Shown: positions 1 to 60,000 of the stretch, piece after piece
Layout of the letters: each line of letters begins with the position of its first letter
Position numbering within the stretch: the first letter of the stretch is position 1
NCBI RefSeq assembly: GCF_037042905.1
Contig: NC_087251.1
Span: 7,132,001-7,192,000 of the forward strand
DNA length: 60,000 nt
Reading direction: 5' to 3'
Origin: Lytechinus pictus
Lineage: Eukaryota
The notes under the pieces: model-generated
The model's input: only the letters and a program-made list of their open reading frames with translations
Told to the model about the DNA's origin: nothing
Databases searched by the model: none
Made by a program: the position numbers and the translations under genes

Positions 1-1395
1 CAAAGAAGAGAGAGGTAGACTGTGAGAAAAGCAAACATGGAAGCATCTCTGTAGTGATGTTATATACCTGCAAGTTCATTGCAATAAACAAGGGACAATG
101 AAAGGATGTTTGCTCCAAGTCTAAGAACAAAAGAAAGGTTGTTTCTCAATATAAGAATGTGTTTGCCAAGTAGATTTGGACAGAAAATGAGTTGGCTTGC
201 TCTGTGAATGTACAGTATTGTAGTACATACACATGGCGTGAACAAGTGAGAATATATGAAATTGGAAATAAAAGAAAGAATTTATATACATATACAGAAT
301 GTTGAAATATAAATGAAAATATATACAAGGAAAGAATATATAGATGTAGATATATAAAAAGATATAGTCAAGTCACTACAAAGGCATTCATTAACAGAGA
401 AATGTTTCACCTAAATAAGGCAAATCTTTAAAATGTCATATTCCTTGTCCCATTTTGATAAAATTTGCAGTGTTTTGTTTGTCTGACTTTTCTCTGTCTG
501 TTCTAACCATATTATTTTCAGCTATGGCGAAGTACCCCTTTAATTCATCTTGATTCGTTAATATTTTTCCCTTACCAAATTTGATTTTGTTTGGATGAAT
601 TAAAATGGGAGGAACTAAAAATCACTGAATAAAAAAAGTCGATTAATCAAATTAATTTTTGCAATTTATATGGTTACATACATGGAAGGTCGTGATTTAT
701 TTCTGTTAAATTCACATTTATTGGAAAGAAGATGTGTTTGCATATCGATCGGAAGGAGACTCACCCGAGGGAGACAGAGGGGCAATAATTGATCTGAATA
801 AACATACACCCAGCGGAACTGCCCCCCCCCCCACTCAGTGTTATTTAGGGTACGCCTATGCTTGTTTCCTCTCTTTGAAAGCACCTCCCTATCTCATGTC
901 TGCCAAAATTTCTGAACCCCCCCCCCTTTCGCAGGCTTTTCCAGCCTTGGAGACCCCCTATATAAATCCGGAACACTGCTCAATGCACACCCCTATCTCA
1001 GGTGAACTCTCATTTCAACCCCCTATCACAGCCTCAGGACAGACAACCTCCCCCCCCCCCCTTCATCTCAGGTAAGCTGTCGTCACAATAGAGGTTCCCT
1101 GATGTCATGATGGAGGACAAAACAATAGCAAAACCATGAAAACAATTAATTTTCATAGTATGATGCACAGTGGGGGGGGGGGGGGGCTGACCATGCAAAT
1201 AAATCACAATCATATGGTCATTTTTACGTTTTTGTACACGGTTTTGTAAAAAAGTGGGGGGCGTCAGCCCCCCCCCCCCCCGCTTCCACGGCCCCTGAAT
1301 ATGGCTGCTTGTGGGAACCCTCTATACATTAGGAAAGATTTTAAATTTCTCAGGAGTCCAAAGTGAGAGAGAGAGAGAAAAAAAAAACTTTTTAA

Positions 1396-2007
1396 AGATC
1401 AAGTCCACCCCAGAAAAATGTTGATTTGAATAAATGGAAAAAAATCAAACTAGCATAATACTGAAAATGTCATAAAAATCGGATGTAAAATAAGAAAGTA
1501 ATGACATTTTAAAGTTTCACTTATTTTTCACAAAACAGTGATATTCACAACTCGGTGACATGCAAATATGACAGTCGATGATGTCCTTCACTCACTATTT
1601 CGGTTTGTTTTTATTGTTTGAATTAAACAATATTTCATTTATTACAGATTTGATAATAAACACCAACTTGACTGATCGAAACATATAATATTTAACAATG
1701 TTAATGCCACATTTTCAGGGAGGAATTAATCATTGTTTTACTTAACACTGAGGAGAAAATTCGAATATTTCATATTTCATATAATAAAATACAAAAGAAA
1801 TAGTGAGTGGATGACGTCATCAGTCTCCTTATTTGCATACCGACCAAAATGTGCATATTACTATTTTGTGAAATTAGGTGAAATTTAAAAATGTCACGAC
1901 TTTTTCTTATTTTACATCCGATTTTGATGAAATTTTCAGTAATATGTTTGTTGGATTTTTTCTCTTTTTATTCAAATCAACTTTTTGTTGGGGTATAGAC
2001 TTGTCCT
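1396..2007. mobile_element. TTAA-flanked MITE with long TIRs (Kolobok/T2-type), copy A
   Basis: TTAA|AGATCAAGTCCACCCC ... GACTTGTCCT|TTAA with ~200-bp inverted arms. Homologous copies at 19311, 51510 and 58320. Confidence 0.85.
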
Positions 2008-14881: not shown

Positions 14882-14971
14882 TTTATATTGTGGGAACCCA
14901 AGTTCAGCAATCCAATCTGCTACTTGGTCACATGTCCAGTACAAACAAATCGGATCGCCAGGCCCCGCCAT
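14882..14971 (-). CDS. SAMD15: SAM-domain protein (SAMD15-like), coding exon 1: MAGPGDPICLYWTCDQVADWIAELGFPQYK
   Basis: ATG at 14971 in a strong context (ACTATGG). The 90-nt exon ends at a phase-0 GTAAGT donor. It encodes the SAM N-terminal motif W-x3-V-x2-W-I-x2-LGFPQY. It is not in the ORF track and was found by manual translation. Confidence 0.9.
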
Positions 14972-14996
14972 AGTGTTCGGTGTACCTGTGCTCTCT

Positions 14997-15081
14997 GTTG
15001 CTATGCAATTGCAAGGGGAATTCCGGAAGTGGATCGAGAGCGGGGGGGGGGGGGGGGGGGGCAGTGATTGGAATTCCGCCC
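14997..15081 (-). promoter_or_regulatory. Proximal promoter of the SAMD15-like gene: RFX X-box, ETS site, G20 tract, CCAAT, GC box
   Basis: GTTGCTATGCAAT (14997-15009), CCGGAAGTG (15023-15031), G20 (15042-15061), ATTGG (~15067) and CCGCCC (~15076) lie 26-110 bp upstream of the ATG in a CpG-rich patch. Confidence 0.6.
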
Positions 15082-15963
15082 ACCGAATGAGCCGTACTTT
15101 ATATGGGCACTTTTAAAGTGTAATAAAAACGGGACTTTCTAAACACCTTTTTGATTCATTAACAGGATAAAATTAAAAAAAAATGAAATTCCGACCTAAA
15201 AAGTTTTTAAAATGAAGAGCAAGATAACGTATCTCAGTAAACATTGCGAGAGAGAATACCCAGACAAATATTTTTTAATTCACCTTTTGTAATCATGAAA
15301 CAGATGGTTATCTGCAATATAGCTGGAACAAATAAATGATAACTTGAAACCGATTTTGAGTCCCAAGTTCTTGCGCAGATCAACGAGTTCAACTGGCACT
15401 TGAGGATGGGCCTGTAGGGCTGTATAGGCCTAACAGTGGGTGGGTCATGCAGTGGTGGATCCAGGATATCGCTCATGGGGGCATTTTACAGAGTTTGGGA
15501 GAGTGGTGATTTTTTATAATAAGCTTATTCGATATAAAGGGAGTTGTATATTCGACAAGGTTCTATACGATAAAGAGGTTTATAAATTGCATCACATTTT
15601 GGAAAATAATGGTAAATTAAAATGTGATAGACATTTTAATTTGAATATAGAAGCAAATAATATTGAAAAGATCAAGCATATTCATGCCTATTTACCCGTT
15701 AGTTGGAAGAACAATATCGAAATAAATGAAAAACATAACTCTGGAATCGATTTCAATTTGGGTAAGAAAATCAAAAGAAATATACGAACAGCTGTTGTAA
15801 ATTTAAATCAAACCCTCTATTTTCGACAGAATTAGAATACGGATTATGATCTTTTCAATAAGGAAATAGAAAGCATATATTTTAAGACTAATATATTGCA
15901 CACTGAATAGTCGATTAAGGTAGTTTCAGTATAATCTCTTGCATAATATTATATACATACCAC

Positions 15964-17665: not shown

Positions 17666-19310
17666 CATACCACCTTTTCCGTTTTGGTCTTGTTTCGACC
17701 AATATCATTGATGCTCATTTTGTGAAAAGGAAGAAGAAACGTATATGAACATTTATTTTGTACATGTGAATTTTCTAAATCACTTTGGAATCTGTACGTG
17801 TGCGAGAAGTTTAAATTTTGAAATAAATAAATCTAGTTGGCAAGAAATTCTTCTCGGGAAGCAGGAGAGAAGTAAAGGTAAATATCAATTAATTAATCAT
17901 GTTTTGATTATAGTTAAATATCTTATTTACAAAAACCGAGAATTAAAAAAGCATCCTTCATTGAATGAAATAAAAGATAGTATTAGGGGGATCAAAGAGA
18001 AGAAAAGAAATTGGCAACAAAGAGAGGGACTCTTACAATCCATTTCAATCTCTAATTGGAACCCAGAGCCAGCTCTCCACCGGATAGGGGATGGGGGTGT
18101 TTTAGGGAGGGGGGGGGGTATAGGGTCCAGGGCTGAGTTTGTTGTTGTGATAGAAACTATCTGAGTGAAGAGGCCGAGGTGATAGGTTCTTTAAAAAATG
18201 CTGATGGCTTCAATTCGTTTAGGTTTTATTAATGATTTATTTTTGTGTATTTGGAAAATCTCATTCATATGTTAATATTTGGCACTCGAAAAAAAATGAA
18301 TATGTTGAATTTATTGTATAGAAGGTTCATTCTTAATGCATGTTATTATCATCATTGTTATTCATAATTATGTATTGGAAGATGTATATTGTGTTTTATT
18401 ATAACACTGAAGGAAAAAAATATTGTTAAATTCATGAGTTGTCAAGGTATTCATCAATTTGTAAAGACATCAAACTTGTATTTTATTTTGTATATGAATT
18501 GAAGTTGTCAATAAAAACTACTTCATATAAAAAGAAATTGTCTATTTCCCCTTTATTTTCCCATATTCTGTATCCCCTTTACCCTTTTATTTCTTTCTTT
18601 TTCTTTCTTTCTTTCTTTATGTTGGTACATAGATATTGCCAATAACATTTGTTTTTTTACCTTCCGTCTTCTTGAGTTTGCATTCTATTGTTTAATTTTT
18701 TTATTAAAGTATAATAGGCCTAAAAGGGGATTGGGCAGGTCTTAAAATGCCGTGTAGACTGTTTTACATGTTGTGGATTCAAAATCTTAATTATAATTCA
18801 TTGTGTTATGGGGAGTGCGGGTGACTCTATCCTCGTGCTGAAGGAACACGCAGAACATTTTTATTTTCTAATCTTTTGCATTTTGTTTGCCAATATAGGC
18901 CTATACGCAGTGTTGAATCATGTCAAGGGACCCTGATAGAAATAAAGTTATCAATCATGCTTATGTTGGCTATCTTATCTTCAGTTCGTTAGTCGATTCT
19001 CCTGTATCATATTATTTTGATAAAGGGCTTAGATCTAGTACTTTTTTTTCCCTCCAAGATTCGTCATTGCACAATAAACCAAACCAAAATGTATAGCGCC
19101 AGCTTGCATAACTTGCTCACCTGCAGACTTCATGTGTGATCGTCGAATTGGACCGGGTACCGGCGGTATAAAACAGCTAGCTGATTAGTAACGCCAGTAC
19201 CAAAACGGCTCCGAAAGGAGAGCTGCCGTTTGGTTCCACATTTGTCAACATTTTCTAAGGTAGTTAGTATTATTATTTACTTTGATAAATGTTTCAAAAT
19301 CTGTATCTTA

Positions 19311-19877
19311 GTGTAACTCCAACAAAAAGTTGATTTGAATAAAAAGAGAAAAATCCAACAAGCATAACACTGAAAATTTCATCAAAATCGGATGTAAAAT
19401 AAGAAAGTTATGACAGTTTCGCTTAATTTCACAAAACAGTTATAATTTATGCACACCCCGGTCGGTATGCAAATGAGGGAACTGATGACATCACTCACTC
19501 ACTATTTCTTTTGTATTGTATTATATGAAATATTTTAATTTCCTCCTCATTGTCATGTGAAACAAAATTTTATTTCTCCCTGAAAATGTTGAATTACCAT
19601 TGCTTAACCTTTTATGGTTTAGTCAAGTTGGTCCTAATTGTCAAATCTGCAAAATTGAAATAAAAAACAAAATAAATAGTGAGTGAGGGACATCATCGAT
19701 TCTTTTGTTTGCATGTGACTAAATTGTGTATGTAACTATTTTGTGAAAAATAAGCAAAACTTTAAAATGTCATAACTTTCTTAGTTTACATCCGATTTTG
19801 ATGAAATTTTCAGCACAATGCTTGTCTGATTTTTTCTTTTGATTCAAATAAAAAAAATTCTGAGGTGGACTTGACCT
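19311..19877. mobile_element. Same TTAA MITE family, copy B (opposite orientation, left end eroded)
   Basis: Aligns by eye with copy A; ends GGTGGACTTGACCT. Confidence 0.8.
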
Positions 19878-20249
19878 TTTATGGAAATTCAATATTTTTT
19901 TTATCATATAACTGATGAATTCTATAATTCTGTGGATAAAATGTTTTAGAAATATGAGGTATTCAGTCTCATACAAGAAGGATTTTTTTTTGCACGTGTC
20001 CATGGTCTTGTCAGACGGAATAGTGTGCAAAAATATGGGTGATTTTAATGTCCAGTGCGAGGATATCCCTTATGACCTGAGGAATGGAGGGTACCGGATA
20101 CACATGTCATTATTATTATTATCATTTTTATTATGATTATCATAATCATTATTAATATCATTATCATCATCAGACGCGTATCCAAAATCAGAGTTGGGGC
20201 CAAAAAAAACCCCAAAATTTCCCGGTCATCATAATGGTATGAACAGGCG

Positions 20250-21338: not shown

Positions 21339-21498
21339 GGCTTGGCTCCAGGCACAGCTGTCCTCCATTGTTTAATCACTTGTTAGAATAATTCGTAAAT
21401 TCCCGTTATGATTCTCAAATCGGTAACTGTGTCTGTTTTGTGGATTTGGTTGATTTGAAGGAGCCAATTGGTTGAAAATGACGACTAGAATATCACAA

Positions 21499-21762
21499 GT
21501 GTGTGTGTGTGTATTTGAGTTTTGTCAGACGTGTATCAATCGGGGGAGCGATTCATGAAAGGACTTGTCGGACGTTTTATCCGACAAGTCCTGTTTTATC
21601 CGACAGTTACCATATAGTAACAGTGCCTCACAGCCAAAGATGTCAGAAAGATGGAAAGATGTCAGATGTGACAACTTGTCGGACAAAAATCTTGATGAAA
21701 CGCTCCCCATATATGATTATTTACGTCTGGGACCGACCTTTTACGTCACCATCCGAAAGATG
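21499..21762 (-). mobile_element. SINE body/3' tail (interrupted by MITE 21544-21707), probable continuation of the head at 22841-22923
   Basis: Minus strand reads TCTTTCGGATGGTGACGTAAAAGGTCGGTCCC...CTCAAATA(CA)n; same strand as the head and separated from it only by a LINE fragment. Confidence 0.6.
21544..21707. mobile_element. 164-bp Harbinger-like MITE with TGTCGGA/TGTCAGA repeats
   Basis: GGGAGCGATTCATGAA / TTGATGAAACGCTCCC inverted ends. Confidence 0.75.
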
Positions 21763-22840
21763 AGGCACAATAGATTAAAAATAAATTCTACAAAAACAGT
21801 ATGTATGTGAATTGGTACAAAACGTATATGATTCGAATTAAAGCACGATGAATTAAATCTAAAAATCCACGATATCCGTATCGAACAGGTAAAGTATCTT
21901 GGTATTACCATTGATTCTGAGTTAAAATGGAATGATCATGTTTTAAACCTTTGCAAAAAGGTCAGTAAGATGATTAGTTTTCTTGGTAGATTCAGTTCTT
22001 TTTTGAATGAGTCAACTCTGAATCCTTTATAGAAGGCTGTAATTATGCCACACTTTGATTATGCCGACATTATCTGGTCATCAGCAACTAAAACTTGTTT
22101 GGGCATGTTGCAAAAACTGCAAAACAGTGCAGGTATGATTATTTTAAAAACAAAATTGTCAGAGCACAGGCCAGTGCTAGAGATTCATGATATTCTGGAA
22201 TACTCTTCAACAACGTCAAACTTTCCATACTCATTGTTTATTATATAATATAAAATATGTCATCATGATACGTCTCCTGCCCACTTAAAAGAAGAAGAAG
22301 ATTTTTAAGACATTGAGGTACCCCACAAGAAAAGGAAATCAAGTTATAATGTCTAAACCAAAGACTGAAAATTGTAAGCGCACTTTCATATATCGTTATG
22401 GTAAATTATATACAACAATCTACCTCTTAACATAAAAAAATGAAACAACTTTTCAACCTATAAAAGAGAAATCCTATAGAAAAAAAATCAGAACTGTGTA
22501 ATGACGATTTCATGGGTGGGGGGGGGGGGCCGGGGGGGGGGGTATCTGGGCTTGCACTGCAAGTTCATGCACCCTAACTTTTGTATCTCTTTATATTAAT
22601 TTGAAGTCATAGAAATTGTAATGTTAATTCATATCATTTATTTCCAGGGACCTCGGGGAAGAACGGATGGGCTATATTAATAGCCCATCTGAAACGAGTC
22701 ATCCCTACGATATGTATAAGTTTTATATGTTGTATTATACTCATTATTTATGTTATGACTCTGTTGTAATAAATTGATCTTACAATTTATATTTTGTTTA
22801 TATTTATATATTTTTATCGTGAATAAACCAAACCAAACCC
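21763..22840 (+). mobile_element. Decayed L2/CR1-group LINE 3' fragment
   Basis: KYLGITIDSELKWNDHVLNLCKKVSK...KAVIMPHFDYADIIWS...LQKLQNSA and later KPKTENCKRTF, with stops and frameshifts; ends AATAAA(CCAAA)n. Confidence 0.85.
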
Positions 22841-22923
22841 GACTTGACCAGGGCTCGAACCTCCCCTCTGCATCAATAACTTCCCCACAGCTTGGATTAC
22901 AGGCGCACGCCACAACACCCAGG
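22841..22923 (-). mobile_element. SINE 5' head: 7SL/Alu-domain-like sequence followed by a Pol III B-box
   Basis: Minus strand reads CCTGGGTGTTGTGGCGTGCGCCTGTAATCCAAGCT...GGTTCGAGCCC, compared with the 7SL 5' end GCCGGGCGCGGTGGCGCGTGCCTGTAGTCCCAGCT. Confidence 0.7.
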
Positions 22924-22925
22924 GG

Positions 22926-23105
22926 TGTTTATTTATTTATTTATTTATTGATATATTCATATTCCACAATCATCAAAGTACATTTATAATAAATCATTTT
23001 AACACTGAAAAAAATGCATAACACACAGGATTGAAACGTAGCAATGAAATGAAAAAAGTGGAGGGCCTACTAAAAAGCAAAGCTTGTAAAATGTAGACCC
23101 CCTAT
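22926..23105 (-). mobile_element. LINE-type 3' UTR fragment with stem-loop and (TAAA)n tail
   Basis: Minus strand GGGTCTAC...GTAGGCCC hairpin followed by a TAAA microsatellite tail. A plus-strand 3' end with (CCAAA) tail lies at ~18925-19090. Confidence 0.5.
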
Positions 23106-26100
23106 CAAAATTTTATACATTTTTTTACAGCGGATCTGAAGAAATCACCTACACAAATCGGCTATGACGATCACACCACCCAACAAAATCCGGAACAAAT
23201 CGGCGGGTAAGGAGCACTAGTCTGCTATGCAGACTCTGAATGGCTCGTGAAGTGGGATCTGCCAGCCTGAAAGGGCGAGCGAAGCTCTAGTAGACCTATG
23301 GGGTGTTGCAAGAAACTTGCGATTGAACGCAAATCGAACGCAACTCCCAAAATTGAGCGTAAGTCCTCCGATTAAACGCAAATCTGCAATTGAACGCAAG
23401 TTACGTTCAATCCTGTTGCAAGAAGAAGTTGCGTTTGATCAATTGAACGTAGATCAAGCGCAAGCTTTGCAATTGATTGCAAATCGAACGTAACTTATGT
23501 AAGATTTTGGAGGATGCGCAAAATTTGCGTTCGATTTACGTTCAATTGATTGTCCATAGGCTTGTGTACTAAAAATTCTGCAAAATTTTTTTTTTTTGTA
23601 TTTTGTTTTGAAAACTTGTGTAAATTATGCCATTTTCAATTTTCCATGGGTTTTTTTCAAGAAAAACTTGAAATAATGTTATTTTCAATCTTTATAGGCC
23701 TCTTCAGCAATTATGCCATTATTTTCACACAATTTCAGTACATTCTCTCCTAATATCATTTTAAAGTGTGTCAATAACCAAAAATATTCTGCTCTTGTTA
23801 TCAGAGGTCATGGAATATTCAAATTGTGATTTCTGAAATAATTTGTATGAAGAAATGTTGAAGAAATAATAACTCTCCATAGGCACAAAAGCCACTCTTT
23901 ATTAAAAACACTTCATGCACTGGCAAATGCTTATCAATATTTCTGAGCGTTTGCAGTAAATACACCTCAGAATATGTTTTGCAAGAGCACTAAATTGCTT
24001 AAATGCTTTCATTCATACATATCATAATGAATAACATGCCCAATTAAGTTATTTTAGTTTGATTTTCAAATAAAACATACATTTCAGGAGATTGCTACAC
24101 TTCAAAATCTGAAGCTCTCTTGTTTCTCTCTCTTTAATCATGAGATTGCATCGTAGATATATATCACACTTGCATACAGGGATGAGGTCGAGGCTGATTC
24201 TTCCGAGTCATGAGGCAGCTTGAGAGAACTTCCCATAGATTCTGTACAGTGACTCGGACCAAGGCCAGCAAAATGTTGCCTCGAGGTCAGCATTGACTAC
24301 ATCCCTGCTTGGACTTGAAAAGATCCATTGATCTGTGCACAAAAAAGAACACTGCTCAAGACATTCATTATTGATGGACCTTTTATTTTCATTTTTCAAT
24401 GTTTCTTGCTCTCGAGGAATTACTTCTGAGATTCAGTTATATGAAATAAAAATTTCATATCATCTTCATCAAGTGTTTCACCACAGAATGTCTTGTTTGA
24501 AATTGATGTGTCTCATGCAGAAGACCACAGTCCTTAAGGTTGGCATGAAGAATCCATAGAAGTCCAGTCAGGAAAGCCACAATCGTCTCTGCTTGAAGGA
24601 ACAAATCTGGTTTCCAGAAGCAGTCTAATTTGAGATAAATTTGGAGAGCTCCATGGAGTGAAGTTTTTAAACAAGCAACGCCCTCATTCTGAAGTCCACT
24701 CTTATAATGATGTTACTACAGACAGGAGCATCTCTGAATTCAGTTCTGATAATCAACCTGTTCATAAACAAATAATAATATGGGAAATAATGCAAGCCCA
24801 TAACTATACATAGCTTGGGTTAGTTCAAATTTTGTCCTTTCAGTGCAAGAACGCCCTTAGCAAAACATTTTTGTGCACCCATCGGTGCAGAAATGCCCCT
24901 ATGTCTGCTGGTAAGGACCTTGTTTGCATTCAAATGATGATATGATAGAGGGATAGTGGCTTACTCCTGAGACCATAGTAATTGGCAATTTGCCATGATG
25001 TAATCTAAAAAAGTGTGAACTGATTGTTTTTCCCCAAATAAAAGAATCATGGAAATTAAAATATGCAATAAATTAAATCAATGAAAGCAAAATACACACT
25101 TTCATACAGTACATCTTGGATGAGCACAACCACCCCCTCCCCTCCCCCCATCAATGGGATGTCTTCATTGCTGAGAAGTCCAGTCAAGATAGAGATTTGT
25201 GTTAGCCTTTTTCATTTTGCATTATCCTTGGGTCAATGTGTACATATTTCACCCCCATCCGCATTACGATCATGGTGAATTATTAATAATAATACAGTTT
25301 ACATGTAACCTACCATTCAAGAGTTGATAAAATGAATCAATCAGCTGGTTGCAAGAACACACATTGTAGCAGACACAGTTATGGTGGTTCTGAGGTTCCA
25401 GACTTCTTTGTCATAACTGTAGTAAGCAATTAAAAGCAAAAAGCAAAGAGATAAAACATACTCATGAAATTAATATACAAGCTCAGTTGCCAGTGTGTTA
25501 ATCATTATAGTAGTCCAAGGGTGTTTTGATTAAAGTCACTTCTGGCCTGGGGAGGGGCACTATGGTTCCTCAGCCATGGGCGGCGCAATTAAAAAATTAT
25601 GAAATCATACCTTTTGCTTTAATTTACTAAAAAAGCTCGTAATAGAATGCCAAACTTTGGTGTACATATTCCTTTCTAGAGCAATCCTAACAACTTTACT
25701 TTAAAAAATCTGGTATCAAAATAAATTCCTTTCAATTCATGGTTTTTTTTTAAATATTTTTTCTTAACTTCTTAAATTTTTTTTTATTGTTATTTTCAAG
25801 ACAAAGTTCATCAGTGACATTAAATTACTATTGTCAATAAAAATTTTTTACCCAGTTATGAATATTGACTTTTTACATGTAATCATGTTTTTGTCTGACA
25901 TGTACTTAAACAAACATAATGTTGCAAAATTTCCTGACCCTGTACCTGGGAATGGCAAATTAAGTATCAAAAGTTGTGTGAGACTTGAAAGTAAAACGTC
26001 AGTCAGCGGTGCGGGAATAAAATTTTGAGTGGCAGATTTATTCTGAAAAATGTCAAGGGGGACCATATGCCATATGCCCCCCCCCCCCCGAGTATTGTGC

Positions 26101-27193: not shown

Positions 27194-27816
27194 TACCTCG
27201 AGCGAAGTTCGTGCAGGCTCCACTCCACTTCACTACCGCTACACTACGCTCCACCTACCCAAACTTCGAGACCGTGAACTCTATCTGATATTCCGAGTGA
27301 CAAAGGTGGGATTTTATGGGGGAAAATATAAAATTCATGCAACATCACAACCTTTAAAAACAATTGAATTTAATATTCTTACTTTACACCAAGTTTCACT
27401 TCTTTTCCATGCTTCTATAGTATCAGTCTAAAAATGGGTGATTTAGAGCCAACATGAAGTTCCTCACACGTATAAATAATTCGCTGCCGATTTCAAAACA
27501 TTGCATGCACGCGCGATACGGCAGCGAATTATTTATTTGTGTGAGGAACTTCATGTTGGCTCTAAATCACCAATTTTGAGACTGATAGAAGCATGGAAAA
27601 GTGAAACTTGGTGTAAGTAAGAATATTAGTTAGGCCTAATTGTTTTTAAAGATCGTGATGTTGCATGAATTTTATATTTTCCCCCCATAAAATCCCACCT
27701 TTGACTTGTCACTCGGAATATTATCAGATAGAGTTCAGTCTCGAATTTCGGGTAGGTGGAGCGTAGTGTAGCGGTAGTGAAGTGGAGTAGGGCCTGCACG
27801 AACTTCGCTCGAGGTA
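27194..27816. mobile_element. 623-bp foldback element (~300-bp inverted arms, ~29-nt loop)
   Basis: TACCTCGAGCGAAGTTCGTGCAGGC / GCCTGCACGAACTTCGCTCGAGGTA; 9-bp TSD ACGGTAGAC/ACGTTAGAC (1 mismatch). Confidence 0.9.
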
Positions 27817-35210: not shown

Positions 35211-35513
35211 TTGTATGTGTGCTAAGGAGTGGTGAATCCCTGGAATTCACTGATCAGCCACAGAGCATGACCATCCCAGAAGGCACAAGTATCATCTTAT
35301 CCTGTGATGTAGACCAGACACAGAATGTGGCCTTCTCTTGGACCCGCAATGATGTCCCTGTAGAAGATTCATCAAGGATCTTCATGGACACCAGTAACAA
35401 TCTCAAGATTGGTGATGTATCCAGGGAAGATGCTGGCAGCTACAAATGTGTAGTGCAATCAAGCTCGTTATCTGAACCAATCACAAGTCAGCCAGCTGTC
35501 ATCAATGTCACTT
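35211..35513 (+). CDS. PTK7: Ig-superfamily receptor (PTK7/off-track-like), exon 2 encoding the first I-set Ig domain
   Basis: Pyrimidine tract plus AG at 35209-10 and GTAAGT donor at 35514; 303 nt, phase 1/1. Contains F-x2-QP-x-S, LSC, W-x2-N-x2-PV-x-D-x2-R-x-F and D-x-G-x-Y-x-C. The Ig call is secure. PTK7 identity rests on recalled similarity to PTK7 Ig1 (PVQDTERRF) and is only moderately certain. Confidence 0.8.
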
Positions 35514-51509: not shown

Positions 51510-51796
51510 ACTATATGGTTCAGTGAGTCAAGTTGGTCCTTATTGTCAAATCTATAAAAAATGAAATATTGTATAATTCAAACAATAAAAAACAAAAGAA
51601 ATAGTGAGTGATGGACATCATCGACTGACTCACCTAATTGTGCATATGTATCACTGTTTTGTGAAAAATGTGCAATACTTTAAAAAGTCATAACTCTCTT
51701 ATTTTACATCTGATTTTGATGAAATTTTCAGCACTATGCTACTTTGATTTTGATATATTTATTCCAGTCAGCATTTTCCTGGGGTGGACTTGACCT
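51510..51796. mobile_element. Half copy of the same TTAA MITE family
   Basis: One arm only, ending GGGGTGGACTTGACCT|TTAA. Further eroded fragments at ~425-543 and ~33380-33520. Confidence 0.75.
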
Positions 51797-54031
51797 TTAA
51801 ATATGAATAACAGACAAGTTGCTATCAAATGGTACACTTTAAAATAGGTGTTAGCATGTATTACAGTATCAGTTGCATAATATAAAGAATTACAGATTAA
51901 TGCATCTTGTCCTATTCCATTCTTGTTTATGATTCATTTCATCTTCAAGTAGACCTATTATTTTCTGTGTAATAAGTTCCACGTACATGAAGGAGAATTG
52001 AGCTGATGAGCAATTTATGCAGCAGAGCCCTAAAATCATGGGCATAGTCCACGGTAAAAACGTAAGAGACATTTATTGGGAAAGATGAATCGTTTCTGCT
52101 TGGATAGGAAAGAATTGGATTATCTTTGTAGCTACTTGCACCAAGCTACTTATTGGATTTACTTGAAGTATGAGTGGGTGAAGGAAGTGTGTCCATATAA
52201 AATTGGCTTTGGACACAAATCTCAACCTAAACTCAATAGAGAATTGGTGTGCTACGTGTATCTCTTTATCAGCAGTAGATGATACATGGAAGTATTGATC
52301 ATGACAAGGCCTAATTGTGGCACCAACTGTATGGATGAAGATAATAAAAGGGTGTGTGCTATTTGTATAAGTTTTGGTTAAAATAGTAATAATGGAGAAA
52401 AAATTGAATATAAGAGTGGTTAATTGCATGTTACATGTTGATGAATTGCAAATTGGACATCAAAAGTAACATTACTGTCATAGAATCTTCAGCATGTGCA
52501 TCATTAGGAAAGGATATCTGCTTAAATTAATTAGTTGCAATGCCTTTGATTATATTTACAATTTGCAGTAATGTCTGCTTTTTTTTAGAGACAACAGAAA
52601 AAATACAAAGTCGTATTTTTGGCAATTTCTAAGCAGAAGACCATTTAAGGCTCGTCTTTTGTGAGTCATACTCAGTTCAAAGAAATGTGCTGTGAATTTG
52701 TCTTATAATATTTGCATGCAAGATGAAGGACATGGTATCAAGGTATTAAAAGCAAATAAACTCGGCATGGAGTATTTAGGAGGGAAATTTAAAGGGCATA
52801 CTTCATTTAAACTGTAAGAAAAAAAAGAAGAAAAAAATGGAAAGTCAGGAAAGGGGATATGCCTAAATGCAGTGAGTTTTACATCTTCTTTCCAGAGGAT
52901 GTAATGAATTGCCAAAAGGGAAAAATATATATCCATGTAAAGGGTCTGTGGGTTGTGATATCAAGTGAAAGGATGGTATCAATAATAAATCTAGAAAAGT
53001 ATATGATAATAGGGCTAAGATTTTCATTTAGGCTTGGTCTCTTTAATAGATACTGTCTCTGTTATATAAACTATTCTATTCCTATCTTTATCAATTATAT
53101 CAATTATATCTGTCAGTTTTGCGATTCAGTGTATTTCATTCTTCTGTGTTCTATGAAGCGGAGTCAAAGTCGAGGCCTACATGATGGTATGGTATATGAT
53201 AATAAGTTAAAAGGAATGGCTAGCTCACTTGCTTTTATCTCTTGACCTCACACATTACTCTCTGTCCATATTGATGAGTCTCTTGGCTCATGCACCTTAC
53301 TACTTGCAGAGGGTTTGCTTCATGCAAGTAAAGAGCTCATGAATGCGTGCAGAAGAGTGGTGTGGAGAACTCCCCAGGTTGGCTTCATGTATGATGAAGA
53401 GCTCTACCTCATGCTTGCAGAGAGGGAGTGGAGGTGAATATCATTCGGGAGTGAATCTACAGAAAGAATGACAAATTAGCAAATATTCAGGATGAAAGTA
53501 AAAATTGTGGAAATGAAAGGGAATACAATTGGAACAAAGAGAAGGAAGCGACAAAAGTTGACACATGCTCCTATTAAAAAGAAAATGTTATTTTGTGATT
53601 AAAAAAATCATTCATTCTATTTATCATGAAGGTGGTTTTTTTTGTCTTTAATATAATTTAGTATTATCCTGCCTTACTACAGCATGTTTGGAGAATCATG
53701 GGAATCATTGTGTGGTCAATTGTGGGGAACAAGTTGCTTCCTCAATGTTCGACCAATGTTCATAAAATTTGGCATACATGTCACTTTTTAGGATGTTGAG
53801 TGCAAAGCATACTTTAGAAAAAAAAGTAAGATTTTATTACTATGGTAACTACACAGAGAGGGGATGAGATGGGGAGTGATAGGTGTGGGGGGGGGGGGGA
53901 AGTTGAGATGGATGCAGAACCATCTATGTAAGCTTGGTAGTGTATACACCAGAGAAGTTTGAAGATGAATCATCCTTTACCCATCCTCTCTCTATCTCTC
54001 CCTCATCCTTCATCTCACTCATCCATTTTAC

Positions 54032-56483: not shown

Positions 56484-58319
56484 AAAGCACAGAAATAAAA
56501 CTAACTTAATATTACTGTTTAATTTGCAAAGTAGCCGCTGGTGTCAGAATTTGTAAGGAGGTGATATTTATGCCTGCCCTTGACACTCTTTTTTATTTAC
56601 TACACAATATAATCACTGAGTGGATTTGATATTCATCCATCATCTCTATCACAAATATCATCCCCTTCCTTAAAAAAAAAGAAAAAATGGAATAATTGGA
56701 TGATCGAAAATACAATTGGGAATGAATTAAAGAAGAAATTAGTTCTAATTCATTCACAAAGTGTAATGTCAGTTGCTGACTTTTTATTCAAATGTAATTA
56801 TTTTTTCCGGGTATTGCAAAATAATTCGAAATGTTCTTTGAAGTCTATTAAAAATGCAGAAAATAAAACTATTGAGAGAAAGGTGGGGCTATTTGAGGGG
56901 GGAAAGGATAGCTGCACAAAAATAAGATGGAGATGATTTGATTGTCTTGATAGAGAGAGAGAATACTCCCTTCTATTTGTCAATGTCACTCGCATTTCAA
57001 TTTCATTGATTCAAATTTGTAGGAAATTGTGTAATGCGCACATTTTGAAGTGTATGGTTGATTTGCATCCATCCATCCACCCATGCTTGGAGAATAGATG
57101 GAACGAGTGACGGTTCTCTCTGCAACTAAATTACATTCTAAACTCAATCATGATTTGTTAAAAGAGGATACAGGGATGTAAATTGTCTTGGGATAGGATT
57201 CATATCTTGTGGAGGAATAGGATCCAATAGATTGTTCATGACTGTCTTTTCTGACTTCAAGTCTTATTCATGACTGGAGGTTCATTATTTTATTTTACCA
57301 ACTGCACTTTTAAAGGAAGAATTACTGTTGAGACAGCATTTTTTTTTCATTCAGAAACTTTTATCTTAATGCTATACAGGGGTCTGTTATAGTAACAACT
57401 ATGGTAACTTTACCATTATAGCAACTAACTATGGTAACAGGGCTCAGCAGCCAATCACAATTAAGATTTTCATGATAACAATTTTGAAAATTTCCAGCAG
57501 ATGTTAGTCTACGGGCATCTGATTTATAGAAGTTTGGGAAAATGCTATAGATCTTGACCTGACCTGAGATATATTGTGTGCTTACACTTCTCTTCAAGCA
57601 GAAATAATTAATGAATAAAAATCACATCATATAAGGAGGTGTGGATGAGATGTATAGCCAAAAGAAATTGAAAAAGAATTTGAACTTATGACCCAATGAG
57701 GTGTGATTTATCAATTTTACAGCTAATTTGGCAATGCAAATATCTTTGCTCAACTCTTATATGTTTGTACTACTTTTGTAGCATCAAGTGCCTTTGAATC
57801 AGGAGTATAGTGGATTATCATGGTTCTGAGTAGGTGTTTGGGATTAACAGCCAGTCTCAGTTTGGTGAAGTCTTACTGAGGGATTTATAAGCAGAATTAT
57901 GCACATAAAATCACAAGGGTTTTAAAAGACATACAGGATCTACAAGACCTACAACTCCATTGCATAGATTATTTACACTGATATAGGCAAGCGAGAAGAA
58001 AATATGACTTACACGGACTTTAGTCGTCCATATGTTATTTTTTTGCTGTACTTATTTATTTTAAGTTAATGATTTCAACTGTCATTCATTTTGTAATAAT
58101 AAAGTGGGGGATTGCAAACATGTCCCCCAAGTATGTAGGCCTTCACATTAATAATTCCAAAATTGAATTGTAAAAAGAAGAGATAATAGTTATAATGAAA
58201 ATACAATACCTGTACCTTGGGTGATGCAATTTGTTACATTGTTTTGTATTTGTGTTGGTGTGGTAGGTCTCATAGGCCTATTTATTTATTGGAAACCAGT
58301 AAACTTGATGAAAAATTGA

Positions 58320-58895
58320 AGGTCAAGTCCACCCCTGAAAAATTTTGATTTGAATAAGCAGAGAAAAACCAAACTAACATAAGGTTGAAAATTTCATCAC
58401 AATCAGATGTAAAAGAAGAAAGTTATGCCATTTCAAAGTTTTGCTTATTTTTAACACAACAGTGATATGCACAACTCAAACGAGGCAGTCGATGATGTCC
58501 CTCACTCACTATTTCTTTTGTTTTTTATTGTTTGAATTATACAATACTTCATTTTTTACAGATTCAACAATTTGACTGAACCATATAGTATTAAATAATG
58601 CTAATTCCACATGTTCAGGGAGGAATAGATTGTTTTTACACTTGACAATGAGGGGAAAATGAGAATATTTTATATAATAGAATCCAAAAGAAATAGTGAG
58701 TGTATGACATCATCAGTCTCCTCATTTGCATACCGACCAGAATGTGCATATCACTGTTTTGTGAAATTAGGTGAAACTTTAAAATGTCATAACTTTCTTA
58801 TTTTACATCCGATTTTGATGAAATCTTCAGTGTTATGTTTGTTGGATTTTTTTATTTTTATTCAAATCAACTTTTTGCTGGGGTGGACTTGTCCT
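58320..58895. mobile_element. Same TTAA MITE family, copy C
   Basis: TTGA|AGGTCAAGTCCACCCC ... GGGGTGGACTTGTCCT|TTAA; collinear with copy A. Confidence 0.85.
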
Positions 58896-60000
58896 TTAAA
58901 TAATATTTTCACGACTATCATTTGTAAGGCGTAACTTACAACAAGGGCTTTTAATTTTGGAATCAAATTGCCCTTAGCCCCAGGTATTTCCCCTTCTCCA
59001 AACATAATTGATTATCATTGGCTAGAAATTAAAGAAAATCATTATAAAATTTTATTTCCAATTCATAAATCTCGTCTTCATTTTGTTAAAATCATTTTGA
59101 AATAATAACATGATCTGTTCCTTAGTATTCCTTTTATTTATGAAATACTCATCGGGCGGTATGATAGAGCGTTCTTTGAAGGGATCATATCCAGACAAAG
59201 TATTGCTTGTCAAGCCGTCTTTTATTGGTGTTTTTAGAAGACCCGGTAGCCATGTTGTCTTCAGGGGCTTTACTGCATTATCATACAGAAAGGGATGATT
59301 CACCCAACCTGGATCAAATTCTTTCAAGATTGCATCCTTTCCATGCCGCACCCTGTTTCTTCCTCTCATCTCAACCAAGATTCCATCCTCTCTCTGCATC
59401 CCTGAACCAGTGAGACCTTTACATGTACTTTCCTCAGCTAGGAACATCTTTTTATCATATGCTGTTGAGATACAATCCTTTTATGGATATGAATATCAAT
59501 CAAAGAATGACTTATTCTACAAGGTTATCATAGCAAGTGTGAAGGATTGGTATATCCAGCATCGTTTATTAGTCTTTTTGCCTTAGTATGTAGGTCTGAT
59601 TATACGAATTTAGCAAAAATTGAAAGATTGTCCAATTTCAAAAATGTTAAAGCAGTCTATATCATTGTGGGAGTAATATTTTATATTTCTTATACTAGCG
59701 CATTTAAAAATTGTTTTTTTAAAGAAAAGCAAAGAATAATAACTACATGTACACAGTGTACATTGCACATCTACTGGTATAATGTATGCCCCAGTTGTCA
59801 AAAACTCAAAAGTTTTTAAGTGTGTACTGTGTGTCAATGTAGTCAGCAGTATTTAAACAATCCATAAAACAGAGTTGAAAAATCAATAAGGTTTACAATG
59901 GGAGACCTATTTAGTGATTGCATAAGAAAAGACAGGATATGTATACACATTGACTACCTTCCAGAGACAAGATGTCTTGCATGAGTGAATGTGTGGTGGG

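What the first reader, a model, noticed from the sequence alone, without database searches (positions are those of the whole stretch)
21499..22923. 7SL (Alu-domain)-headed SINE in an invertebrate genome, split by later insertions
Seen: the minus strand at 22923-22841 starts CCTGGGTGTTGTGGCGTGCGCCTGTAATCCAAGCT, closely matching the 5' Alu domain of 7SL RNA. It then diverges from 7SL into a tRNA-type B-box (GGTTCGAGCCC). Removing the L2-like fragment (21763-22840) and the MITE (21544-21707) joins it to TCTTTCGGATGGTGACGTAAAAGGTCGGTCCC and a (CA)n tail, giving a ~180-nt element. Known: 7SL-derived SINEs are classically the Alu/B1 families of Euarchontoglires, with only a few reports elsewhere. 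From memory the central motif resembles the Deu/Nin-type SINE core. Inference: this is an independently born chimeric SINE (7SL head, internal B-box, conserved core).
Basis: partly seen in the sequence, partly recalled or inferred. Interest (0 to 1): 0.75.

Follow-up and report, generated by a model that had tools for sequence, protein, structure and literature searches.

The report
Split SINE copy with 7SL head
This is one broken-up copy of a short jumping element whose front end looks like the start of the signal-recognition-particle (7SL) RNA, grafted onto an older tRNA-type element; heads of this origin are reported only from a few vertebrates, and this genome looks like a marine invertebrate's.

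Summary
Observation confirmed, with a 2-base shift of one boundary. The first 43 bases match only the 5' Alu domain of Rfam Metazoa_SRP (model 2-43, E 8e-4, below gathering score; 33 of 42 positions identical, 11 of 13 pairs standard). Three metagenome contigs hold the same body and tail uninterrupted (3 of 4 hits; 43-47 of 48 identical). A profile built from them alone ranks the 21 bases abutting the LINE's 3' end first of 119,960 sites, so head and body were one ~176-nt element before an antisense L2-type fragment and a MITE split it. The relatives keep the tRNA-type B box but 0 of 3 have a 7SL head: a head swap onto a Nin/Deu-like tRNA SINE. Unlike all published 7SL SINEs it lacks the 3' Alu strand, keeping about the 46-nt minimal domain shown to drive Alu retrotransposition. 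Not tested here: copy number, the host's 7SL gene, Repbase/Dfam, the host lineage. The scan noted this element many times elsewhere in this genome (unchecked notes, 1,000+ copies claimed).

The parts
22880..22923 (-). 7SL (SRP RNA) 5' Alu-domain-like head: both hairpins, the U-turn motif between them and the closing pairs; holds the 7SL-type A box region
   Evidence: Rfam Metazoa_SRP model 2-43 at 22922-22880, E 8.3e-4; 33 of 42 positions identical and 11 of 13 pairs standard, read by eye from that alignment
22862..22879 (-). 18-nt linker of unknown origin
   Evidence: outside the Rfam match; only 2, 2 and 5 of 18 identical to the matching stretch of L003, L005, L006
22841..22861 (-). tRNA-type B box and the 10 bases that lead into the body
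   Evidence: 12, 15 and 13 of 21 identical to L003, L005, L006 in exact register; top of 119,960 sites for a profile built from those three; its first 17 bases equal the T-arm of ARAGORN tRNA-Asn genes in 9 of 10 phage loci
21761..22840 (+). later insertion: 5'-truncated, decayed CR1/L2-group LINE 3' end (ORF2 C-terminus, 3' UTR, AATAAA, short repeat tail), antisense to the SINE, with a 2-base duplication or microhomology
   Evidence: translations (at least 4 stops and 4 frame switches in about 240 codons, by eye); junction frame; Atlas
21711..21760 (-). SINE body; 21760-21729 resembles the 5' end of the Nin-DC/Deu domain
   Evidence: 43, 46 and 47 of 48 identical to L003, L005, L006; nhmmer E 3e-17 with a profile from the relatives; 25 of 32 columns identical to Lsa_Nin_1 by eye
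21541..21710 (.). later insertion: MITE 21544-21707 with decayed 3-bp target duplication at 21708-21710 and 21541-21543
   Evidence: inverted repeats; 3 of 3 relatives have CTG at the empty site and each flank differs from it by one base
21499..21540 (-). SINE 3' tail ending in (AC)7 at 21512-21499
   Evidence: 36 of 40 identical to L005 and 25 of 27 to L006 (BLAST); nhmmer E 4e-5; alignment
22924..22950 (-). upstream flank: (TAAA)n tract ending in a few AC-type bases; possible target site, duplication not resolvable against the (AC)n tail
   Evidence: read directly

Best explanation
A single, now dead copy of a non-autonomous retroposon (SINE) of about 176 nt. SHOWN: its parts are a 7SL-like 5' Alu domain, a short linker, a tRNA-type B box, a short Nin/Deu-like body and a tail ending in (AC)n, and these were contiguous until an antisense L2-type fragment and a MITE inserted into them. 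The B box, body and tail are shared with SINE-like elements that have other, tRNA-like heads. INFERRED: it arose by a head swap, most simply a template switch during reverse transcription from a tRNA-headed SINE RNA to 7SL RNA, which replaced the 5' half of the tRNA head and kept its B box. The 7SL part supplies the A box, the tRNA remnant the B box (about 57 nt apart), so pol III can transcribe it. The folded 5' Alu domain binds SRP9/14 and brings the RNA to ribosomes, where it meets the newly made reverse transcriptase of a partner LINE that recognises the tail. It belongs to a multi-copy family (inferred, about 75%). Partner LINE not identified; a Nimb/I-type partner is a weak lead (about 30%).
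For: Head = SRP model 2-43 only, with a U-A for C-G double change in the closing pair and an intact U-turn motif. Join: profile from relatives only puts the segment abutting the LINE end first of 119,960 sites, score 15.2 against 11.3 for the next; about 2e-6 per site from the shuffle rate (my arithmetic). Empty MITE site in 3 of 3 relatives. Relatives have a B-box-like motif at the same offset (-22) in 3 of 3 and no SRP match at E<=10 in 0 of 3. Precedent for head swaps: 5S rRNA + partial tRNA heads on Deu SINEs (PMC4824008 passages; PMC4758252 passages) and hagfish SINE1-1_EBu (PMC7245038). Mechanism: a 46-nt 5' Alu domain binds SRP9/14 and suffices for one round of retrotransposition, and the 3' Alu part is needed only for its B box (PMC11760393 abstract and Discussion).
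Against: No second 7SL-headed copy was seen by any search: none in the window, 0 of 3 true relatives in metagenomes, none in viral or prokaryotic collections. The Rfam score is far below the gathering threshold and would be about E 0.03 if scaled to the whole window (my arithmetic). The B-box profile score alone is not rare: 64 of 300 shuffled windows reach it somewhere; only its position makes it significant. The 7SL overlap (43 nt) is under SINEBase's 60-nt rule. The relatives' heads are tRNA-like only by box motifs; ARAGORN and Rfam call no tRNA in 3 of 3. No clear target-site duplication around the element.
Confidence: 0.72

Rival explanations
1. One-off chimeric retrocopy: a single template switch between 7SL RNA and a tRNA-headed SINE RNA, inserted once and never amplified (like U6/L1 chimeras).
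For: No second copy seen here; 0 of 3 relatives carry the head; such dead-end chimeras are described (PMC11760393 Discussion).
Against: The chimera keeps a complete two-box promoter layout, and its linker and B-box segment differ from all three relatives (2-5 of 18; 12-15 of 21), as expected for a separate lineage rather than a fresh switch; these relatives may come from other species, so this is weak.
Confidence: 0.12
2. The head is not from 7SL: a drifted tRNA or other GC-rich head that resembles the SRP 5' end by chance.
For: 24 bits against a gathering score of 70; only 42 model positions matched.
Against: 33 of 42 identical, match begins at the model's 5' end exactly where the element begins, both hairpins pair, one double change keeps a pair, three of nine differences are CpG-type; no tRNA model hits.
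Confidence: 0.07
3. A lone 7SL pseudogene fragment and an unrelated SINE body that happen to flank the same LINE insertion.
For: About 1.08 kb separates head and body; 64 of 300 shuffled windows contain a segment scoring as high as the B-box segment somewhere.
Against: The segment abutting the LINE's 3' end is the best of 119,960 sites and restores the relatives' spacing to the base; head and B box are contiguous in the window.
Confidence: 0.03
4. Mammalian Alu contamination or transfer.
For: The head resembles the Alu 5' end, as any 7SL 5' end does.
Against: The head runs directly into a B box, body and tail shared with non-mammalian contigs in 32-42% GC context with nested invertebrate-type repeats; no 3' Alu strand or A tail.
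Confidence: 0.01
5. Real family, but already catalogued (for example a Repbase or Dfam echinoderm SINE, perhaps labelled SINE2), so only the 7SL reading would be new or nothing would be.
For: Repbase holds several sea-urchin SINE2 families, one with a Deu/Nin domain (SINE2-3_SP); I could not see their sequences.
Against: [quoted passage not shown]
Confidence: 0.15

Closest known systems
SINE1-1_EBu, hagfish (Kojima 2020, PMC7245038; parts 1-3 of 4 of the text read, supplements searched)
   Same: 7SL-derived head joined to the 3' part of an older tRNA-headed SINE; short-repeat tail instead of poly(A); non-L1 partner likely.
   Different: EBu keeps 5' 96 nt plus the 3' end of 7SL (whole Alu domain, 7SL's own B box) and has an RTE-derived tail; this element keeps only about 43-46 nt of the 5' domain, takes its B box from the tRNA head, and carries a Nin/Deu-like body.
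Alu / FLAM / B1 / Tu and shrew-mole Urop (PMC13023118, passages and section 8 read)
   Same: 5' Alu-domain hairpins at the head; presumed SRP9/14-ribosome route.
   Different: All arose by a ~183-nt central deletion joining the 5' and 3' ends of 7SL and use L1 through a poly(A) tail; here no 3' 7SL strand was matched and there is no A tail. In Tu-type dimers the tRNA unit is leftmost; here the 7SL part is.
5S rRNA + partial tRNA headed DeuSINEs (AmnSINE1 / SINE3 group; as described in passages of PMC4824008 and PMC4758252)
   Same: A different pol III RNA grafted by template switch onto a tRNA-headed Deu/Nin SINE.
   Different: Donor is 7SL, not 5S; the tRNA B box is kept and still needed; only ~32 nt of the Deu/Nin domain remain.
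Nin-DC / Deu-domain SINEs of invertebrates (Lsa_Nin_1, Pan_3, BivaMD-SINE1, SINE2-3_SP; supplements seen; SINE2-3_SP sequence not seen)
   Same: The 5' motif of the domain (25 of 32 columns to Lsa_Nin_1, by eye).
   Different: The rest of the ~120-nt Nin domain is absent, and the motif follows the B box after only ~10 nt.

Membership tests
SINE1 (7SL-derived SINE) | 5' head homologous to 7SL RNA | tested here: met
   Rfam Metazoa_SRP model 2-43, E 8.3e-4, 33 of 42 identical; below gathering score
SINE1 (7SL-derived SINE) | Both 5' and 3' strands of the Alu domain, joined by a central deletion (all published SINE1) | tested here: not met
   local cmscan match ends at model position 43; no match to the model's 3' end; the following B box and body are shared with non-7SL relatives
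SINE1 (7SL-derived SINE) | Head closest to the host's own 7SL gene | not testable with these tools
   no genome held; no 7SL gene in the window
SINE (SINEBase definition, PMC3531059 passage) | At least 100 interspersed copies | not testable with these tools
   no genome held; 1 copy in 60 kb; no read-level count obtained
SINE (SINEBase definition) | At least 60% identity to tRNA, 5S or 7SL over at least 60 nt | tested here: not met
   79% identity but over 42-43 nt only; the B-box segment adds tRNA-like sequence separately
SINE | Internal pol III promoter, A and B boxes | tested here: met
   B box identical to a tRNA T-arm; A box region of 7SL (positions 6-15 per PMC7245038) inside the matched head, about 57 nt upstream; transcription itself not tested
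SINE | Target-site duplication and simple-repeat tail | tested here: inconclusive
   (AC)7 tail present; upstream flank ends in similar bases so a short duplication cannot be told from the tail
SINE | Tail shared with a partner LINE | tested here: inconclusive
   no match to the inserted L2's 3' end or elsewhere in the window; loose by-eye likeness to the BivaMeta-SINE1 tail, a group linked to Nimb LINEs
Deu / Nin-DC superfamily | Conserved central domain (~120 nt Nin; 70-nt short forms known) | tested here: inconclusive
   only the 5' ~32 nt match (25 of 32 columns to Lsa_Nin_1, by eye); downstream part absent; no computed alignment was made
PIF/Harbinger-type MITE (insert) | Terminal inverted repeats and a 3-bp CWG/TWA duplication (rule recalled, not from a call) | tested here: met
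   31-nt arms; CTG at the empty site in 3 of 3 relatives, flanks one base off each

The most novel reading that the evidence does not exclude
An independently born, amplified 7SL-headed SINE family in an invertebrate (probably an echinoid), the first outside vertebrates, built from only the ~46-nt 5' Alu domain plus a borrowed tRNA B box. It would be nature's own version of the minimal Alu construct, show that the ~183-nt deletion route is not the only way to a 7SL SINE, and give a same-body pair (tRNA head versus 7SL head) for testing whether SRP9/14 binding helps a SINE that relies on tail recognition by a non-L1 LINE.
Probability: 0.6. Interest if true: 0.75.

Novelty: new variant of a known kind. 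Interest (0 to 1): 0.62.

Why it matters
Papers from 2020, 2024 and 2026 list 7SL-derived SINEs only from supraprimates, hagfish and a shrew mole, all keeping both strands of the Alu domain, and argue that this fold is required. A cell assay found that the 5' 46 nt suffice if a promoter is supplied. This element has that design: 5' domain only, B box from a tRNA SINE. If it is a family, it extends 7SL SINEs to invertebrates and makes the role of SRP9/14 in SINE success testable against siblings with the same body and other heads. This particular copy adds the nesting order (SINE first, then LINE and MITE), which shows the element is older than a heavily decayed LINE insertion.

Tried and rejected
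Whole genome: not held. Second copy in the window: none for head, body, MITE or LINE at word size 7. Viral contigs: body motifs gave 2 chance phage-like hits and 0 hits twice; the B-box motif gave 10 loci, 9 in phage tRNA-Asn genes, mostly near-identical and so not independent, none a SINE. Prokaryote genomes: 1 chance hit (L007). Metagenomes: 1 of 4 hits (L004, 68% GC coding DNA) dropped as chance. No read-level result was obtained. Rfam and ARAGORN on the three relatives: no tRNA or SRP call. Folding of body, tail and relatives' heads: no z-score beyond -1.83, no structural claim made. Host lineage through the Ig exon at 35225-35512: no informative relative, not pursued. Idea that the bases 5' of the body (21768-21761) are a long target duplication: rejected, they continue the LINE reading frame. 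Idea that the segment after the B box is the 7SL 3' end: rejected, it is shared with non-7SL relatives. Look-alikes in other genomes of the scan: none.

Full report
Observation. The window is AT-rich (30-42% GC per 2 kb), has scattered exons (an Ig I-set exon at 35225-35512, E 1.5e-15) and many dispersed inverted and direct repeats. That it is an invertebrate, probably an echinoid, rests on my recall of such repeats and on unchecked notes of the scan; two protein searches did not settle it.

Head. cmscan of 21400-23100 returned 7 matches at E<=10; the best by E-value is Metazoa_SRP at 22922-22880, model positions 2-43 of 299, 24 bits against a gathering score of 70, E 8.3e-4. No tRNA family is among the 7, and ARAGORN finds no tRNA in the window. 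Reading that alignment by eye: 33 of 42 positions are identical to the consensus; 11 of 13 pairs are standard, one is G-G as in the consensus and one is broken; the closing C-G has become U-A; the U-turn motif between the hairpins is intact; three of the nine differences are C-to-T at CpG. The match starts where the element starts and stops at model position 43. Nothing matches the 3' strand of the Alu domain. Against: the score is low, and scaled to the whole window the E-value would be about 0.03.

Relatives. A body motif found 4 loci in metagenome contigs. One (L004) is chance coding DNA; 3 of 4 (L003, L005, L006) hold the same body and tail without interruption: 43, 46 and 47 of 48 bases identical in the body, 36 of 40 and 25 of 27 in the tail for L005 and L006. 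All three have a B-box-like motif 22 bases before the core. None has an SRP match at E<=10 (0 of 3), and neither Rfam nor ARAGORN calls a tRNA in them; their heads are tRNA-like only by box motifs and differ from one another. Viral and prokaryotic collections gave no true copy.

The join. A weight matrix made only from the 21 bases before the core in those three loci was run over both strands of the window. The best of 119,960 sites is 22861-22841, the segment that abuts the LINE's 3' end (15.2; next 11.3). The score alone is not rare, since 64 of 300 shuffled windows reach it somewhere, about 2e-6 per site; the point is that it lies exactly where the join predicts and restores the spacing to the base, with a 2-base word present on both sides of the insert. 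An nhmmer profile from the relatives finds the two body and tail pieces (E 3e-17 and 4e-5) and no other copy. At the MITE site 3 of 3 relatives read CTG, and the two flanks in the window each differ from that by one base, a decayed 3-bp duplication; I recall this as the PIF/Harbinger signature. The element before both insertions measures 176 nt.

The B box. Its first 17 bases occur exactly in 10 viral loci, 9 of which place them in the T-arm of an ARAGORN tRNA-Asn. These loci are near-identical phage genes and not donors, but they show the motif is of tRNA type. The 18 bases between the SRP match and the B box resemble none of the relatives (2, 2, 5 of 18); their origin is unexplained.

The body. 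The tail does not match the inserted LINE's end; it loosely resembles the BivaMeta-SINE1 tail, a group linked to Nimb LINEs (PMC11481361 passage). That is a lead only.

The inserts. The LINE fragment (21761-22840, plus strand) reads as a CR1/L2-group ORF2 C-terminus with at least 4 stops and 4 frame switches in about 240 codons (by eye; clade from recalled motifs; Atlas neighbours are eukaryotic hypothetical proteins, one cluster with PF09004 in 20% of members; Pfam uninformative). Its decay looks heavier than that of the SINE body, so either this copy is older than 'young family' implies or the LINE template was already defective; I cannot tell which.

How it works. Shown: anatomy, contiguity, shared B box, body and tail under other heads. 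Inferred: a template switch from a tRNA-headed Nin-type SINE to 7SL RNA replaced the 5' half of the head, as proposed for 5S-headed Deu SINEs and hagfish SINE1-1_EBu. The 7SL A-box region (positions 6-15 per PMC7245038) and the tRNA B box lie about 57 nt apart and would give pol III transcription. PMC11760393 (abstract and Discussion) reports that a 46-nt 5' Alu domain binds SRP9/14 and supports one round of retrotransposition, and that the 3' Alu part is needed for its B box; this element supplies exactly that missing part from a tRNA SINE. This copy is dead, since its B box is cut from the body.

What is open. Family status, the host's 7SL gene and Repbase/Dfam status therefore remain untested. 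The scan's earlier notes (110 of 273 notes in this genome fit the first look-up) describe 167-208-letter copies at many other places and claim 1,000-1,600 young copies with a head from the host's 7SL. They agree with my reading, which I had written before seeing them, but they are unchecked and I do not count them as support.

Literature. Eight searches listed no paper reporting a 7SL-derived SINE in an invertebrate; the library lacks most subscription journals and Repbase Reports. Seen: PMC7245038 parts 1-3 of 4 and a supplement search; PMC13023118 passages and section 8; PMC11760393 abstract and Discussion; PMC4824008 passages, section 10, supplement 2 search and part 1 of 4, file 1 not searchable; PMC4758252 passages, supplement search and file 4 part 3 of 5, file 1 not searchable; passages only of PMC5804259, PMC11481361, PMC10886601, PMC3531059 and PMC8615465. 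SINEBase's supplementary alignments could not be read and may hold sea-urchin consensus sequences that bear on novelty.

Verdict. A real, split copy of a chimeric SINE that works like a 7SL SINE but fails two strict membership tests (no 3' Alu strand; under 60 nt of 7SL overlap). New variant of a known kind; best explanation 0.72; interest 0.62, rising to 0.75 if the family and the host lineage are confirmed.

Noticed in passing
L003:510-684, L005:520-690, L006:170-372: Three metagenome contigs carry the same short Nin-like body and tail directly behind a B box but under three unlike heads, a head-swapping SINE group; L006 has a short duplication in the body and an (AACC)n tail.
   Followed up: partly
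window 21761-22840: The LINE fragment looks more decayed (at least 4 stops, 4 frame switches) than the SINE body it sits in (1-2 differences in 48 from L005/L006); unexplained. Its 3' UTR holds a long G/C run at about 22516-22545.
   Followed up: partly
window 22862-22879: 18-nt linker between the 7SL match and the B box matches neither the Rfam model nor the relatives.
   Followed up: partly
window 35225-35512 (+): Exon encoding one Ig I-set domain (Pfam E 1.5e-15); from recall it resembles PTK7-type receptors; no close relative found.
   Followed up: partly
window about 14894-14998 (-): Short exon-like frame that resembles the start of a SAM-domain protein (recalled likeness).
   Followed up: no
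window 1382-1994, 19301-19885, 51512-51803, 58316-58909: At least four copies of a ~600-bp element with long terminal inverted repeats, 80-90% alike.
   Followed up: no
window 27194-27816: Near-perfect nested inverted repeats (79 nt at 95%, 69 nt at 94%): a young palindromic MITE-like element.
   Followed up: no
window about 23300-23565: A second MITE-like element with internal short repeats lies 380 bases upstream of the head.
   Followed up: no
window 15434-15835 and 17712-18164 (+): Open stretches that look like decayed non-LTR retrotransposon ORF2 ends (recalled likeness).
   Followed up: no
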